Source: a virus
Taxonomy: Duplodnaviria; Heunggongvirae; Uroviricota; Caudoviricetes
Direction: 5' to 3' (one strand)
IMG/VR virus record: IMGVR_UViG_2778261572_000007
Length of the DNA: 5,214 nt
In this document: piece by piece, positions 157-4,898 of the stretch
Layout of the letters: the number at the start of each line of letters is the position of its first letter
Position numbering within the stretch: position 1 is the stretch's first letter
The notes under the pieces: generated by a model
The model's input: only the letters and a program-made list of their open reading frames with translations
Database searches by the model: none
What the model was told of the DNA's origin: nothing
Program-made: the position numbers and the translations under genes

Positions 157-474
157 TTAACAGATTGACTGAATTCCGTTTTTCTCAACCACAGAAAGCA
201 AACGAAGGGCAGGGCCACCAGGGCGCTTTATTCCCCTTTCCCAGTCTGAAATGAGGTTTTTACTGACATTAAGATATCTGGCGAAAACAGGTTGAGACAG
301 ATGCTCGCGCTCGCGAAGTGCCCGGATTCTTTCTGGCGACATTGTTGGCGCTGGTTGCAGACAAAGTTCATCAAACTCTCTCATAGTTTGTTTTGTTACT
401 GCGCCAATATCCTGAAGTGACTCCATCATTTCATGTACGGATGCAAGCGCATCACTGCGGTAATTTTTACTCAT
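157..474 (-). CDS. XRE-family helix-turn-helix antitoxin / transcriptional regulator (105 aa)
   Basis: Complete minus-strand ORF. The C-terminal half (LSQPVFARYLNVSKNLISDWERGIKRPGGPALRLL) looks like an XRE-type HTH. Its start ATG (474-472) overlaps the stop of the upstream toxin-like ORF in an ATGAGTAA junction. A GGAGG Shine-Dalgarno lies 6 nt upstream, inside the toxin 3' end. Family assignment is from recalled motifs, not a search. Confidence 0.8.
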   Translation of the reverse strand: MSKNYRSDALASVHEMMESLQDIGAVTKQTMREFDELCLQPAPTMSPERIRALREREHLSQPVFARYLNVSKNLISDWERGIKRPGGPALRLLSVVEKNGIQSIC

Positions 475-838
475 TGGGTACCTCCGTAAACTGACCCTGC
501 AGGATCAATTGCGCCAGTTGTTCATCAGTAAGATTGAGAACGTGATGCGCAGCTTTTCGAAATGCATTTTCCTCGATGGCTGTAATATTTTCTCTCTCAT
601 TCTTTGCGTACGCATAGATGAAAAAAGCCTTTTCTGCGACGCGGTAAAAAATTATTGTCCTATAACCGCCTGATTTACCGCCACCTCTTCGGGCTAATCG
701 CTGCTTAATGACACCACTACCCAAATCTGCGGATATGAGTCCCTTATCAGCTAGTTCCACGACTTCTCGCAGAGCTTTATCGGAAATCCGATTTTTTCGT
801 GCGAAGCGTTCAAACCAGGCATTTTTGAAAATGCGCAT
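467..838 (-). CDS. RelE/ParE-superfamily-like toxin (123 aa; HigB-like toxin-first arrangement)
   Basis: Minus-strand ORF from ATG 838-836 to TAA 469-467. The segment GGGKSGGYRTIIFYRV...FFIYAYAKNERENI resembles the core of RelE/ParE-fold toxins that pair with HTH antitoxins. The longer 171-aa ORF in the track starts inside the AT-rich intergenic region and has an implausible Cys/Tyr-rich N-terminus, so the ATG at 838 (or 850) is preferred. The start is uncertain by a few codons. Confidence 0.7.
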   Translation of the reverse strand: MRIFKNAWFERFARKNRISDKALREVVELADKGLISADLGSGVIKQRLARRGGGKSGGYRTIIFYRVAEKAFFIYAYAKNERENITAIEENAFRKAAHHVLNLTDEQLAQLILQGQFTEVPNE

Positions 839-1079
839 GTTTGGTTCCATATCGTTGTGTAATACATAGTGTGACACAATTAAATAGGATGGGCAATATA
901 CATACAGGGGGCTTGCTAAGGGATGGCAGCTCAAAAAACACTCTATTTTTAGAGTATACAAATGACAGAAAGAAAAAGTCATTGTTTTTTCTCATGAAAT
1001 ACGCATTTTTTGGGAGTGAAATCGTTATTTGTAGTGGATATATTCCAGCCATGTTTTATCCAATACCAGAGGTTTTACA
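839..1079. promoter_or_regulatory. AT-rich divergent intergenic region with candidate operator inverted repeats; exact promoters not resolved
   Basis: 241 bp between the minus-strand toxin start (838) and the plus-strand ORF at 1080. Inverted repeat TTGTGT (855-860) - N13 - ACACAA (874-879) sits just upstream of the toxin start. A perfect 6-bp inverted repeat ACTCTA (940-945) - TTTT - TAGAGT (950-955) lies mid-region. No clean sigma70 -35/-10 pair could be assigned by eye. Confidence 0.3.
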
Positions 1080-2713: not shown

Positions 2714-3070
2714 ATGCTCATAGATTTGGTTTTACCTTACCCGCCGACGGTGAACACTTACTGGCGACGCCGTGGCAGCACATATTTTATCTCGGATGAG
2801 GGAAAGCGTTATCGCCGGGCTGTGGCGCTTATTGTTCGCCAGCAGCGGCTGAAATTAAGCCTGTCCGGAAGGCTGGCGATAAAGGTGATTGCAGAGCCAC
2901 CGGATAAGCGTCGTCGCGACCTGGACAATATCCTGAAAGCACCGCTGGATGCGCTGACGCATGCGGGAGTGTTAATGGACGATGAGCAGTTTGATGAAAT
3001 CAATATCGTTCGTGGTCAGCCAGTATCTGGTGGACGTCTGGGGGTGAAGATTTACCCCATAATGCATTAA
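2714..3070 (+). CDS. rusA: Crossover junction endodeoxyribonuclease RusA (Holliday-junction resolvase), 118 aa
   Basis: Size and motifs match RusA: N-terminal LPYPPTVNTYWRRRG and the acidic catalytic region RRRDLDNILKAPLDALTHAGVLMDDEQ. SD AGAGGTG lies upstream of ATG 2714. The position immediately upstream of Q is typical of lambdoid phages that carry rusA instead of ninG/rap. Confidence 0.9.
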   Translation: MLIDLVLPYPPTVNTYWRRRGSTYFISDEGKRYRRAVALIVRQQRLKLSLSGRLAIKVIAEPPDKRRRDLDNILKAPLDALTHAGVLMDDEQFDEINIVRGQPVSGGRLGVKIYPIMH

Positions 3071-3084
3071 GAGCAGGTCAAAAA

Positions 3085-3906
3085 ATGAAACTGGAAGATT
3101 TACCGAAATACTACTCCCCAAAATCACCTTGCCTGACCGATGCATCGGCCTCAACGTCAAAAGATGCGCTGAGTATCACTGATGTGATGGCCGCGCAGGG
3201 CATGACACAGAATCGGGCTGAGATGGGGTTTTCTGCGTTCCTGGGGAAAATGGGCATCAGTATGAATGACAGGGCGCGGGCAACAGAATTACTGGCAGAT
3301 TATGCACTCAGTCGGTGCGATCGTGTGGCGGCGTTGAGAAAACTTCCGGCAGAAATAAAACCGTTAGTGATGCGCATTATGGCTTCGTACGCTTTTGAGG
3401 ATTATGCCCGCAGCGCAGCGAGTAAAAAGCAGTGCCCTTGTTGCTATGGGGAAAAATTTATTGAAAGCGTAGTTTTTACAAACAAGGTCCAGTATCCGGA
3501 TGGTAAGCCGCCGGTATGGGCAAAGTGTACGAAAGGTGTGTATCCGTCTTACTGGGAAGAATGGAAAAAAGTCAGGGAGGTGGTAAAAGTTGCCTGTCCG
3601 GAGTGTGGCGGAAAGGGTGAGGTTTCCACCGCCTGTAAGGATTGCCGTGGGCGTGGTGTCGCCATTCATCGTGAAGAGTCGGTAAAACGTGGTATGCCTG
3701 TTATCAGAGACTGCCGGCGTTGTGGCGGTCGTGGCTATGAAAGACTGCCATCAACGGAGGCATTTAATGCCATATGCAAAGTGACGAGCGCTATCACGCT
3801 TGATACATGGAAAAAATCAGTGAAACGCTTTTACGATACGTTGGTGGTTCGGTTTGACATTGAAGAGGCATGGGCGGAGCGGCAGTTAAAGAGAGTAACG
3901 CGATAG
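3085..3906 (+). CDS. Q: Late-gene antitermination protein Q-like (273 aa) with four CxxCxGxG zinc-finger-type repeats
   Basis: Called mainly on position: directly after rusA and directly before a P_R'-like promoter and tR'-like terminator. Contains CPCCYGEK, CPECGGKG, CKDCRGRG and CRRCGGRG repeats. Assignment to a specific Q family is not verified. Confidence 0.75.
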   Translation: MKLEDLPKYYSPKSPCLTDASASTSKDALSITDVMAAQGMTQNRAEMGFSAFLGKMGISMNDRARATELLADYALSRCDRVAALRKLPAEIKPLVMRIMASYAFEDYARSAASKKQCPCCYGEKFIESVVFTNKVQYPDGKPPVWAKCTKGVYPSYWEEWKKVREVVKVACPECGGKGEVSTACKDCRGRGVAIHREESVKRGMPVIRDCRRCGGRGYERLPSTEAFNAICKVTSAITLDTWKKSVKRFYDTLVVRFDIEEAWAERQLKRVTR

Positions 3907-3911
3907 TGTTG

Positions 3912-3939
3912 TTGATTTTTCCCGAATCTGTGGTAAATT
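3912..3939 (+). promoter_or_regulatory. P_R'-like late promoter (-35 TTGATT, 16-nt spacer, -10 TAAATT with upstream TGg extended -10-like context); a qut-like site is expected to overlap
   Basis: TTGATT at 3912-3917 and TAAATT at 3934-3939, 6-8 nt after the Q stop (3904-3906). Lambda P_R' also uses a TAAATT -10. A small hairpin CGCCC(3941-3945)/GGGCG(3952-3956) plus T-run sits in the predicted initial transcribed region. The predicted start is near 3946. Confidence 0.5.
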
Positions 3940-4115
3940 CGCCCTAACGATGGGCGTTTTATGCCTGACGTTAGAAGAATTTTTACAACTCGCCCTGATG
4001 GGACTTGTGAGACTTCCGGGCAGGAAGCCAGGAGTAGCGATAAGGCGATGGCAAGCCTGCTGCCCCTGTGTAAAAGGCACCTTAATGGTGCCTTTGTCGT
4101 TTTTATCAAAAGATC

Positions 4116-4137
4116 CCCGCCACTGGCGGGTTTTTTT
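4116..4137 (+). terminator. Rho-independent terminator, tR'-like
   Basis: GC stem CCCGCC (4116-4121) / GGCGGG (4125-4130) with a 3-nt loop, followed by seven T (4131-4137). It lies about 190 nt downstream of the predicted P_R' start, matching the lambda P_R'-6S RNA-tR' architecture. Confidence 0.65.
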
Positions 4138-4265
4138 ATGCCTGAAAAGTGGCGCAGGACGTTAAGTGCACTTGCAAAGAGCAGATGGTTGCACAATTAG
4201 CTAAGGCGGCTGATTCTGAATGCATATTATTCCCGCTGGCTGTCGTTACGGATGTGGCAATAAAA

Positions 4266-4342
4266 CCGTCGCTAGCTCATCCGGATAGAGCATCAGCCTT
4301 CGAAGTTGATGGCGCGGGGTTCGAGTCCCCGGTGACGGTCCA
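4266..4342 (+). tRNA. tRNA-Arg, anticodon TCG (UCG), 77 nt with encoded CCA
   Basis: Manual cloverleaf: acceptor CCGTCGC / GTGACGG (7 bp, one G-U); D-arm GCTC-ATCCGGATA-GAGC; anticodon arm TCAGC-CTTCGAA-GTTGA (anticodon positions 34-36 = TCG); variable loop TGGCG; T-arm CGGGG-TTCGAGT-CCCCG; discriminator T then CCA. Confidence 0.75.
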
Positions 4343-4344
4343 TT

Positions 4345-4856
<512 letters not shown>

Positions 4857-4874
4857 ATTTTATAACCCAGAACG

Positions 4875-4898
4875 GGCGTCAGAAATGACGCCTTTTTT
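4875..4898 (+). terminator. Rho-independent terminator (GAAA tetraloop hairpin plus T6)
   Basis: GGCGTCA (4875-4881) - GAAA - TGACGCC (4886-4892), then TTTTTT (4893-4898). It lies 19 nt after the stop of the 4548..4856 ORF and upstream of the Lom-like gene. Confidence 0.7.

What the first reader, a model, noticed from the sequence alone, without database searches (positions are those of the whole stretch)
3907..4140. P_R'-tR' unit predicted to make a ~190-nt short transcript (lambda 6S-RNA-like) gating tRNA and downstream expression
A TTGATT-16-TAAATT promoter sits 6 nt after Q, and a strong terminator ends about 190 nt after the predicted start. This is the same geometry as the lambda P_R' to tR' short transcript of roughly that length. 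Everything downstream (tRNA-Arg, the tRNA-Thr-like sequence, the remnant ORF, possibly the Lom-like gene) has no obvious promoter of its own, so it would be Q-dependent. The overlapping ORFs in the track (3950..4165, 3961..4200) are probably non-coding.
Basis: partly seen in the sequence, partly recalled or inferred. Interest (0 to 1): 0.45.

Follow-up and report, generated by a model that had tools for sequence, protein, structure and literature searches.

The report
Lambda-type late promoter with rebuilt leader
This is the ordinary late-gene switch of a lambda-like prophage (Q gene, always-on promoter, pause site, terminators). Its short leader RNA is about 190 nt instead of the family's usual 65 nt, because a deletion fused it to an RNA module from a neighbouring toxin cassette.

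Summary

**What is there**
- The 273-aa gene at 3085-3906 is a lambda-Q-family antiterminator (PF03589; E 5e-40 to lambda Q structures).
- Directly after it lie TTGATT (3912-3917), a 16-nt spacer and TG-n-TAAATT (3931-3939).
- Six nt further on is AACGAT-GGG (3946-3954). This is lambda PR' geometry, including the sigma-dependent pause element.
- Across 84 related loci the promoter block is nearly invariant while its flanks vary. The pause hexamer changes only at positions 3 and 4.
- The predicted start is A3946.

**Refinements**
- There are two tandem terminators: T1 (4073-4104) and T2 (4116-4137). They predict RNAs of about 157 and 192 nt.
- The family norm is a single terminator giving about 65 nt.
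- The match in length to lambda 6S RNA is coincidental.
- The window is a rare derivative (3 of 5426 E. coli genomes). An approximately 600-nt deletion removed the original terminator's 3' half and a mazF-like toxin gene. That fused the PR' leader to a conserved, structured 120-nt "module A" that keeps its own terminator.
- The overlapping ORFs are not conserved.
- The late genes downstream have been deleted: tRNA-Thr is truncated and joined to a J remnant.

It is a new member of a known kind, of modest interest. No transcript data were available.

The parts
3085..3906 (+). Q antiterminator gene (273 aa), lambda-Q family, with a roughly 68-aa Cys-rich insertion (residues 114-181) at the position of lambda Q's zinc-ribbon arm
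   Evidence: Pfam PF03589, E 2.4e-52. phmmer against PDB 7ubm (lambda Q), E 4.8e-40: residues 1-113 and 182-273 align with lambda residues 1-113 and 116-207.
3912..3917 (+). -35 hexamer TTGATT of PR'
   Evidence: Sequence. Invariant in 38 distinct relatives, while the 8 nt just upstream vary.
3918..3933 (+). 16-nt spacer TTTCCCGAATCTGTGG. It is the candidate Q-binding element and carries the extended -10 TG at 3931-3932.
   Evidence: Nearly invariant in relatives; one common C/G polymorphism. Its position matches the lambda QBE (PMC9388147). Binding was not tested.
3934..3939 (+). -10 hexamer TAAATT, identical to that of lambda PR'
   Evidence: Alignment with lambda. Conserved in relatives.
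3946..3954 (+). Predicted transcription start (A3946) and sigma-dependent pause element: -10-like AACGAT followed by the GGG discriminator
   Evidence: Same sequence and same 6-nt distance from the -10 as in lambda, where it occupies +1 to +9 (PMC5001585). In relatives only hexamer positions 3 and 4 vary.
3946..3994 (+). Ancestral 5' leader (+1 to about +44) plus the remnant 5' arm of the original tR' hairpin (CTCGCC, 3989-3994)
   Evidence: Shared with all loci carrying this Q type. In them the next bases complete a terminator at +42..+65.
3995..4115 (+). Module A: an imported, structured RNA segment. In other prophages it lies 3' of a mazF-like gene, behind its own TTGACA-17-GATACT site.
   Evidence: Homology starts at 3993. 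Parental arrangement seen in L210. Fold z-score -4.3 for the whole leader. Substitutions fall in loops or are wobble-compatible.
4073..4104 (+). Terminator T1: a 9-bp stem with a TTAAT loop and the tail GTCGTTTTT. It predicts an RNA of about 155-159 nt.
   Evidence: Hairpin energy -14.1 kcal/mol. Nearly invariant across module A copies: one loop change and one wobble change.
4116..4137 (+). Terminator T2: CCCGCC-ACT-GGCGGG plus T7, of the tR' type. It predicts an RNA of about 192 nt.
   Evidence: T2 and its 3' flank are homologous to the short-type tR' and its flank in relatives.
4266..4342 (+). tRNA-Arg (UCG), the first gene behind the terminators
   Evidence: ARAGORN. Rfam, 53 bits.
4345..4410 (+). 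tRNA-Thr (UGU) lacking its 3' acceptor strand. The deletion junction with the J remnant is at about 4410.
   Evidence: Rfam, 48 bits with acceptor mismatches. Not called by ARAGORN. Alignment with intact copies.

Best explanation
This is the late regulatory cassette of a lambda-Q-family prophage.

**Mechanism, inferred by homology with lambda**
- Sigma-70 RNA polymerase starts constitutively at about A3946, using TTGATT-16-(TG)n-TAAATT.
- Sigma region 2 re-binds the -10-like AACGAT-GGG at +1 to +9, and the complex pauses at about +16 to +18.
- Without Q, the polymerase terminates at T1 (RNA of about 157 nt) or at T2 (about 192 nt).
- With Q bound to the promoter spacer and loaded onto the paused complex, the polymerase ignores T1, T2 and later terminators.
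- It then transcribes tRNA-Arg and whatever lies downstream.

**Shown directly**
- Homology of the Q protein to lambda Q.
- Base-for-base correspondence of the promoter and pause element with lambda PR'.
- The conservation pattern across relatives.
- The terminators.
- Late-operon synteny in an intact relative.

**Inferred**
Promoter activity, the pause position, terminator efficiency and Q dependence.

**History of the leader**
- The leader is a recent chimera. The family's normal leader is about 65 nt.
- In this lineage an approximately 600-nt deletion removed the 3' half of the original tR', a mazF-like toxin gene and the promoter-like site in front of module A.
- PR' therefore now transcribes module A, and the cassette's own terminators T1 and T2 do the job of tR'.
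- In this window the late operon itself has been deleted. The gate now controls only one tRNA, a truncated tRNA, a J remnant and possibly lom.
For: **Q protein**
- PF03589, E 2.4e-52.
- Lambda Q structures 7ubm/7ubn, E 4.8e-40, with G39, L202 and T206 equivalents conserved.
- PMC9388147 defines the cassette as Q, PR', SDPE, terminator and late genes, and equates PF03589 with the lambda Q family.

**Promoter and pause element**
- Lambda reads TAAATT-TGACTC-AACGATGGG. The window reads TAAATT-CGCCCT-AACGATGGG.
- PMC5001585 places the lambda pause discriminator GGG at +7 to +9.
- The composite motif is unique in the window, with 0 expected by chance.

**Conservation**
- 84 loci were anchored on the Q 3' end, with no motif required.
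- The -35, spacer and -10 are nearly invariant. The stop-codon region and positions -6 to -1 vary.
- The pause hexamer variants AACGAT, AATGAT, AACTAT, AACAAT, AAAGAT and AATTAT all keep A-A-N-N-A-T; one locus (L085) departs from this.
- This PR' and leader occur in 2496 of 5426 complete E. coli genomes.

**Terminators**

**Family norm**
About 68 of 71 relatives have a single terminator at +42..+65.

**Parental arrangement**
L210 carries Q, PR', the short tR', mazF, module A, T1 and T2 in that order.

**Synteny**
The intact prophage in strain Z1323CEC0011 is 99.8% identical over 3800-4410. There, tRNA-Arg/Thr/Gly, holin, lysozyme, terminase, head and tail genes follow the unit.
Against: - There are no transcript data for this or any related locus. 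Start site, pause and termination are all predictions.
- The hexamers are weak (8/12) and the spacer is 16 nt.
- Lambda has a -35-like TTGACT just upstream of its pause element, which helps Q reposition sigma region 4. The window has TCGCCC there, and that stretch varies among relatives.
- The spacer (candidate QBE) shows no clear similarity to the lambda QBE. The Q arm that reads the QBE carries a 68-aa insertion. Q-DNA recognition therefore cannot be transferred from lambda.
- T1 has an interrupted U tract, so its efficiency is uncertain.
- The prophage is defective, and nothing shows that Q is ever expressed.
Confidence: 0.85

Rival explanations
1. The biologically relevant product is module A itself. 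On this view it is a conserved regulatory or antitoxin-like small RNA belonging to a mazF-like toxin cassette, and the PR' fusion is simply another way to keep it transcribed. This is not exclusive of the best explanation.
For: - Module A is 92-100% conserved in three different upstream contexts, and in each a promoter or promoter-like site lies upstream of it: its own TTGACA-17-GATACT (10/12), the cassette's TATAAT site after a mazF deletion, or PR' (window).
- Homology to the window begins 1-4 nt from the start predicted for that TTGACA-17-GATACT site.
- In 36 E. coli genomes, mazF never occurs without module A. Module A occurs without mazF in 12 of them.
- No protein antitoxin ORF flanks mazF.
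- Substitutions avoid paired positions: 8 of 12 variable columns are unpaired and 3 are wobble-compatible.
Against: - Only two independent deletion events underlie the asymmetry.
- There are no true compensatory changes inside module A.
- Pairing to the mazF 5' region is no better than for shuffled sequences.
- There is no Rfam family. The isrK hit scores 19.8 bits against a cut-off of 50, E 0.51.
- Module A could simply be the mazF 3' UTR and terminator.
- It was not found outside E. coli prophages.
Confidence: 0.25
2. The region encodes a small protein (ORF 3961..4200 or 3950..4165, comparable to the annotated orf-64 of lambda). The hairpins would then be incidental.
For: - The ORFs exist.
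- PGAP annotates a 65-aa hypothetical protein, in the same frame as ORF 3961..4200, over module A in some genomes.
- Lambda also carries an annotated ORF inside its 6S region.
Against: - There is no Pfam match.
- The ORFs start at +5 and +16 of the predicted transcript, within its first 16 nt.
- In about 68 of 71 relatives these frames end after 17-22 codons (sequences).
- The frame crosses two terminator hairpins and a mosaic junction.
- It is broken by a 1-nt deletion in L093, L097 and L101, and by T-run lengths of 6 to 9.
- The first codon after the internal ATG differs non-synonymously (GCA versus ACA).
Confidence: 0.03
3. The cassette is an inert relic. In this defective prophage, Q is never made and PR' read-through has no consequence, so nothing is functionally gated.
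For: - The lysis and morphogenesis genes are gone. tRNA-Thr is truncated at 4410 and joined to the last 102 codons of J.
- The junction is absent from all 5426 complete E. coli genomes.
Against: - Q is full length.
- The Q 3' end, PR', leader and tRNA-Arg are 99.8% identical to the intact Z1323 prophage, so no decay is visible.
- PR'-type promoters are constitutive in lysogens of lambda and of Stx phages (bioRxiv 10.1101/2024.10.31.621285; PMC7547250). The short RNA would therefore still be made.
- tRNA-Arg(UCG) and lom remain downstream.
Confidence: 0.15

Closest known systems
Phage lambda Q - PR' - 6S RNA - tR' cassette
   Same: - Homologous Q protein.
- Identical -10 hexamer TAAATT.
- Identical 6-nt gap.
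- Identical AACGAT-GGG pause element at +1 to +9.
- An intrinsic terminator giving a short RNA of similar length (about 192 nt against 194 nt).
- The late operon lies behind it.
   Different: - The -35 is TTGATT, not TTGACT, and the spacer is 16 nt with an extended -10 TG, against 17 nt in lambda.
- The spacer (QBE) sequence is unrelated.
- There is no TTGACT-like element before the pause hexamer.
- The promoter sits 5 nt after the Q stop, against 42 nt in lambda.
- RNA sequence beyond about +10 is unrelated.
- There are two tandem terminators instead of one long hairpin (-25 kcal/mol in lambda).
- Q carries a 68-aa insertion in the DNA-reading arm.
- The similar length is coincidental, because the family norm is 65 nt.
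Short-leader cassettes with the same 273-aa Q (for example phage Evi, Stx2a phage Stx2_EH1910, and many E. coli prophages); K-12 Qin ydfT/quuQ is a more distant cousin
   Same: - Same Q, same promoter and same first roughly 44 nt of transcript.
- K-12 Qin shares the initial transcribed sequence AACGATGGGC..GACGTTA and a terminator at about +65.
   Different: - They have one terminator at +42..+65, so the RNA is about 65 nt.
- The window has a 126-nt insert and a second terminator.
- Qin has a different -35 and spacer, and a 250-aa Q.
StxS (Stx1/Stx2 phage PR'-tR' transcript, 258 nt, processed to a 74-nt Hfq-binding sRNA; PMC7547250)
   Same: - A short RNA made constitutively from an antiterminated late promoter during lysogeny.
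- It is the precedent for such leaders acquiring regulatory function.
- That paper's speculation that PR' leaders are a substrate for sRNA evolution fits the module A capture.
   Different: - No sequence relation was tested or apparent.
- Those phages were not examined here.
- No evidence of Hfq binding, processing or targets exists for this RNA.
IsrK of Salmonella Gifsy-1 (Rfam RF01394)
   Same: - A hairpin plus terminator architecture.
[quoted passage not shown]
- It gave the only Rfam hit in the region (4077-4136).
   Different: The hit scores 19.8 bits against a gathering score of 50, E 0.51. That is chance level and not membership.

Membership tests
Q-dependent late regulatory cassette, lambda-Q family (as defined in PMC9388147) | A lambda-Q-family antiterminator gene (Pfam PF03589) immediately upstream | tested here: met
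   PF03589, E 2.4e-52. Lambda Q structures, E 4.8e-40 over both halves.
Q-dependent late regulatory cassette, lambda-Q family (as defined in PMC9388147) | A sigma-70 promoter (PR') directly downstream of Q | tested here: met
   The -10 is identical to lambda and aligned with it. The block is nearly invariant in 38 distinct relatives while its flanks vary. The hexamers alone are at chance level. Promoter activity was not measured.
Q-dependent late regulatory cassette, lambda-Q family (as defined in PMC9388147) | A sigma-dependent pause element: a -10-like hexamer in the initial transcribed region followed by a G/C discriminator | tested here: met
   AACGAT-GGG at +1 to +9, identical to lambda (PMC5001585). 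Hexamer positions 1, 2, 5 and 6 are conserved in relatives. Pausing itself was not measured.
Q-dependent late regulatory cassette, lambda-Q family (as defined in PMC9388147) | A Q-binding element between -35 and -10 that is recognised by the cognate Q | not testable with these tools
   The spacer TTTCCCGAATCTGTGG is conserved with this Q type but unlike the lambda spacer. Binding needs a gel-shift or footprint experiment.
Q-dependent late regulatory cassette, lambda-Q family (as defined in PMC9388147) | A -35-like element just upstream of the pause hexamer, used to reposition sigma region 4 (TTGACT in lambda) | tested here: not met
   The window has TCGCCC at the equivalent position. The stretch -6..-1 is the most variable part of the promoter region among relatives. 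This is a lambda-specific enhancer rather than a universal requirement.
Q-dependent late regulatory cassette, lambda-Q family (as defined in PMC9388147) | An intrinsic terminator downstream of the pause site, ahead of the late genes | tested here: met
   T1 (4073-4104) and T2 (4116-4137). A strict terminator is expected 0.002 times per strand.
Q-dependent late regulatory cassette, lambda-Q family (as defined in PMC9388147) | Late genes (lysis, morphogenesis) downstream | tested here: inconclusive
   They are present in the 99.8%-identical intact prophage of Z1323CEC0011. In the window they are deleted: only tRNA-Arg, a truncated tRNA-Thr, a J remnant and lom remain.
Q-dependent late regulatory cassette, lambda-Q family (as defined in PMC9388147) | A short terminated transcript without Q, and read-through with Q | not testable with these tools
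   No expression data were found. Literature searches by sequence returned nothing relevant.
Lambda 6S RNA (as a homologous RNA) | Sequence or structure homology along the RNA | tested here: not met
   Only about +1 to +9 is shared. The rest does not align. The length match arises from an insertion/deletion history.
IsrK (Rfam RF01394) | Covariance-model score above the gathering threshold | tested here: not met
   19.8 bits against a gathering score of 50, E 0.51.
Hfq-dependent PR'-derived sRNA (StxS-like) | Hfq binding, processing to a stable 3' fragment, and trans targets | not testable with these tools
   Only generic features are present: a terminal hairpin, a U tract and an A/U-rich linker at 4096-4114.
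Small protein gene (lambda orf-64-like) | A reading frame conserved among relatives | tested here: not met
   The frames are truncated to 17-22 codons in most relatives. Elsewhere they are frameshifted. There is no Pfam hit.

The most novel reading that the evidence does not exclude
Module A (3995-4115) may be a functional small RNA that normally accompanies, and perhaps neutralises or regulates, a solitary mazF-like toxin in lambdoid prophages. In this lineage a deletion would have discarded the toxin and placed the RNA under the constitutive, Q-gated late promoter. If so, the PR' by-product transcript has become the delivery vehicle for an imported regulatory RNA. That would be a natural snapshot of antiterminated leaders serving as a platform for sRNA evolution. 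It might also be a MazF-family toxin with an RNA partner instead of a protein antitoxin.
Probability: 0.12. Interest if true: 0.65.

Novelty: new member of a known kind. Interest (0 to 1): 0.3.

Why it matters
**Annotation**
- The 3907-4140 interval should be labelled as the late promoter, pause site and terminators of a lambda-Q-family cassette, not as coding sequence.
- PGAP calls a hypothetical protein over the same DNA in some genomes.
- This Q and PR' type is present in about 46% of complete E. coli genomes, including some Stx2a phages. The defined promoter, pause hexamer and terminator are therefore useful landmarks for predicting late-gene and toxin control.

**Biology**
- The contrast between the usual 65-nt leader and this rare 157/192-nt chimeric leader is a natural experiment.
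- It addresses whether PR' short transcripts are mere by-products or can carry regulatory RNA, a question still open for lambda 6S RNA.

**Limits**
The mechanism itself is textbook, and no part of it is surprising.

Tried and rejected
- **Rfam, all 4227 families, permissive threshold.** Only the two tRNAs passed. The isrK hit at 4077-4136 is at chance level.
- **Module A in other collections.** It was not found in the phage collection with a distant blastn. A scan of one genome per species with the 17-nt T1 hairpin returned 101 loci, but blastn showed these are only unrelated palindromic hairpins. Module A is so far seen only in E. coli prophages.
- **Second IMG/VR pattern.** It added only two new module A variants (L207, L210) plus three chance hits.
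- **Literature searches.** Searches by sequence strings and by the gene names quuQ and ydfT gave nothing relevant.
- **Antisense pairing of module A with the mazF 5' region.** It was not better than shuffled sequences: 10% of shuffles scored as well. The first attempt timed out.
- **Covariation in module A.** Too little variation exists for a real test. The only changes on both sides of a pair are in T2, which has two alternative hairpin versions.
- **Circularity check.** A first conservation analysis selected loci by the motif itself, so it was circular for the -10 and the pause hexamer. It was redone anchored on the Q 3' end.
- **Alternative promoters in 3940-4265.** None reached 8/12. The best -10-like hexamer, TATTAT at 4225-4230, has no usable -35.
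Full report
**Setting**

The window is part of a defective lambdoid prophage of E. coli. On the + strand it carries the following features:
- a DUF968 gene (1652-2701);
- rusA (2714-3070);
- a 273-aa antiterminator gene (3085-3906);
- a 360-nt non-coding stretch;
- tRNA-Arg(UCG) (4266-4342);
- a tRNA-Thr that lacks its 3' acceptor strand (4345-4410);
- the last 102 codons of the tail-tip gene J (4548-4856);
- a terminator (4874-4893);
- the start of lom.

An intact prophage in E. coli Z1323CEC0011 is 99.8% identical over 3800-4410. There the sequence continues with complete tRNA-Thr, tRNA-Gly, holin, lysozyme, terminase, head and tail genes. The finding therefore sits exactly where a lambdoid late promoter belongs.

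**Observation**

- stop codon: 3904-3906;
- TTGATT: 3912-3917;
- 16-nt spacer, with TG at 3931-3932;
- TAAATT: 3934-3939;
- CCCGCC-ACT-GGCGGG plus T7: 4116-4137.

The hexamers by themselves are not evidence. They match 8 of 12 consensus positions. Sites that good occur 10 times on the + strand, against 9.9 +/- 3.1 in simulations, and the standard scan did not list this one. The terminator is far beyond chance, with 0.002 strict terminators expected per strand.

It has a 9-bp stem of -14.1 kcal/mol and the tail GTCGTTTTTA.

**Why the promoter is real**

The upstream protein is a genuine homologue of lambda Q.
- It hits Pfam PF03589 at E 2.4e-52.
- It hits the lambda Q chains of PDB 7ubm/7ubn at E 4.8e-40.
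- Residues 1-113 and 182-273 align with lambda residues 1-113 and 116-207.
- PMC9388147 equates PF03589 with the lambda Q family. It defines the cassette as Q, PR', sigma-dependent pause element (SDPE), terminator and late genes.

The DNA matches lambda PR' in sequence and in register.
- Lambda reads TAAATT-TGACTC-AACGATGGG, with +1 at the first A of AACGAT.
- The window reads TAAATT-CGCCCT-AACGATGGG.
- In lambda, AACGAT is the -10-like pause-inducing element and GGG at +7 to +9 is its discriminator (PMC5001585).
- The composite motif is unique in the window, with none expected by chance.

The element is conserved in the pattern expected of a promoter and pause site. I collected 84 loci encoding this Q type, anchored them on the Q 3' end, and required no motif.
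- The -35, the spacer TTTCC(C/G)GAATCTGTGG and the -10 are nearly invariant.
- The bases just upstream (Q stop region) and positions -6 to -1 vary freely.
- The pause hexamer occurs as AACGAT, AATGAT, AACTAT, AACAAT, AAAGAT or AATTAT.
- Only positions 3 and 4 change, so A-A-N-N-A-T is kept. One locus (L085) departs from this.
- That is the signature of recognition by sigma region 2.

By analogy the start is A3946, with the pause at about +16 to +18. This PR' type occurs in 2496 of 5426 complete E. coli genomes. It is also found in phage Evi and in an Stx2a phage. K-12 Qin has a cousin with the same initial transcribed sequence and a terminator at about +65.

**The leader is a chimera**

In about 68 of 71 related loci the leader runs AACGATGGGCGTTTTATGCCTGACGTTAGAAGA(T/A)TTTTTACA. 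It then goes straight into CCCGCC-N4-6-GGCGGG plus T6-7 at +42..+65. The family's short RNA is therefore about 65 nt.

The window, Z1323CEC0011 and strain E9 instead keep only the 5' arm of that hairpin (CTCGCC, 3989-3994). Next comes 121 nt of unrelated sequence (module A, 3995-4115, including T1). Last comes a complete tR'-type terminator (T2), whose 3' flank is homologous to the flank of the short-type tR'.

Module A occurs elsewhere, about 70 nt downstream of a solitary mazF/pemK-like gene (PF02452). That gene is inserted after the tR' of prophages with either a Q82-family Q (PF06323) or this same Q. In those prophages module A is preceded by TTGACA-17-GATACT (10/12). The start predicted for that site lies 1-4 nt from the point where homology to the window begins.

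IMG/VR contig L210 shows the full parental order:
- the 273-aa Q;
- the same PR' and leader;
- the short tR';
- a TATAAT site;
- mazF;
- TTGACA-17-GATACT;
- module A;
- T1;
- T2.

The window equals L210 minus about 600 nt, with CC microhomology at the junction. The match in length to lambda 6S RNA (about 192 nt against 194 nt) is therefore an accident of this deletion and not a conserved geometry. Beyond +9 the RNA is unrelated to 6S. The arrangement is rare, seen in 3 of 5426 genomes.

**Predicted products and function**

Transcripts from A3946 should end at T1 (about 155-159 nt) or at T2 (about 192 nt). The 192-nt RNA folds markedly better than shuffled sequences (-74.2 kcal/mol, z -4.3). 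It forms three internal hairpins plus the two terminators.

Q-modified polymerase would be expected to read through both terminators into tRNA-Arg and beyond. No promoter-like site of at least 9/12 lies between 3940 and lom on the + strand.

The literature gives direct precedent:
- lambda 6S RNA (194 nt, plus a 121-nt processed form) is present in lysogens (bioRxiv 10.1101/2024.10.31.621285);
- the PR'-tR' transcript of Stx phages is the regulatory sRNA StxS (PMC7547250).

**ORFs**

ORFs 3950..4165 and 3961..4200 have no family match. They start at +5 and +16 of the predicted RNA and run through two terminators and a recombination junction. In most relatives the same frames stop after 17-22 codons. 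Within module A copies the frame is broken by a 1-nt deletion and by T-run lengths of 6 to 9. They are not genes. The PGAP hypothetical protein placed over module A in some genomes is probably spurious.

**Is module A itself functional?**

Points in favour:
- It is 92-100% conserved.
- In all three arrangements a promoter or promoter-like site lies upstream of it (own site, cassette TATAAT site, or PR').
- Its few substitutions avoid paired positions: 8 of 12 variable columns are unpaired and 3 are wobble-compatible.
- In 36 genomes mazF is never found without it, whereas it is found without mazF 12 times.

Points against:
- Those 12 cases trace to only two deletion events.
- There is no compensatory covariation.
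- Pairing to mazF mRNA is no better than for shuffled sequences.
- No Rfam family matches.
- A 3' UTR plus terminator would look the same.

I rate an independent RNA function at about 0.25, and the more specific antitoxin or regulator reading at about 0.12.

**Differences from lambda that limit transfer of mechanism**
- The spacer (candidate QBE) is unlike lambda's.
- The Q arm that reads the QBE and contacts sigma region 4 (residues 114-152 in lambda, PMC9388147) carries a 68-aa Cys-rich insertion here. It gives a sub-threshold DnaJ CXXCXGXG match.
- The lambda -35-like TTGACT ahead of the pause hexamer is absent, and that stretch is variable.
- The promoter has a 16-nt spacer with an extended -10 TG.

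**Verdict**

The finding is a correct recognition of a textbook regulatory cassette in a common but uncharacterised lambda-Q subfamily. The refinements are the two terminators, a family norm of 65 nt, a deletion-fusion origin for the long leader, and deleted late genes. It is a new member of a known kind. Interest is modest and comes mainly from the captured RNA module.

Noticed in passing
window 3424-3627 (Q residues 114-181): Relative to lambda Q, this Q has a roughly 68-aa insertion with extra CxxC motifs. It gives a sub-threshold DnaJ CXXCXGXG match (E 1.5e-6). The insertion sits at the position of the zinc-ribbon arm that reads the QBE and touches sigma region 4 in lambda. Its consequence for DNA recognition is unknown.
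   Followed up: partly
window 4345-4420: tRNA-Thr(UGU) matches intact copies up to 4410 and then loses its 3' acceptor strand. It is joined to sequence leading into the C-terminal 102 codons of J. The junction is absent from all 5426 complete E. coli genomes searched.
   Followed up: yes
L008 1922-2645; L210 12520-13250: A moron inserted behind tR' in several prophages. It has a TATAAT site and a solitary mazF/pemK-like gene with no neighbouring protein-antitoxin ORF. Then come two palindromes (ATCGATAATCG-AAAA-CGATTATCGA and ACACAC-ATA-GTGTGT), TTGACA-17-GATACT, module A, T1 and T2. mazF is never seen without module A (24 genomes have both, 12 have module A only, 0 have mazF only).
   Followed up: partly
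L205 (K-12 MG1655 Qin) minus strand, about 7450-7355 (record about 1642449-1642354): Downstream of ydfT/quuQ, K-12 has the same initial transcribed sequence (AACGATGGGCTTTGTATACCCGACGTTAAG) and a terminator (CCCGCTGATGAGCGGGTTTTG). The -35 and spacer are different. This predicts an unannotated PR' RNA of about 65 nt in K-12. Public K-12 TSS and Term-seq data could test it.
   Followed up: partly
window 4138-4175: The stretch just after T2 (ATGCCTGAAAAGTGGCGCAGGACGTTAAGTGCAC) is conserved. It has apparently co-varying short stems: CCTG..CAGG here, ACTGA..TCAGT in short-leader relatives and GTGCC..GGCAC in others. It is conserved across otherwise mosaic contexts. Its function is unknown.
   Followed up: no
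window 157-841, minus strand: A toxin-antitoxin-like pair: a RelE-family (PF06296) ORF at 467-841 followed by an HTH_3 (Xre-type) ORF at 157-474. A bidirectional terminator lies at 107-135.
   Followed up: no
window 4874-4893: A strong intrinsic terminator (GGGCGTCAGAAATGACGCCT plus T6) lies between the J remnant and lom. No promoter-like site precedes lom. Expression of lom would need either Q-modified polymerase or an unrecognised promoter.
   Followed up: no
window 4271: tRNA-Arg(UCG) has G at acceptor position 6 (a G-U pair). The Z1323 and EC71 copies have A there (an A-U pair). Pairing is kept.
   Followed up: no
window 4116-4130 versus L008 2623-2638: T2 exists in two hairpin versions of equal length: CCCGCC-ACT-GGCGGG and CCCGC-CACTGA-GCGGG. 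It coincides with a mosaic boundary, since homology of EC71 to the window starts here. This suggests that tR'-type terminators act as recombination joints.
   Followed up: partly
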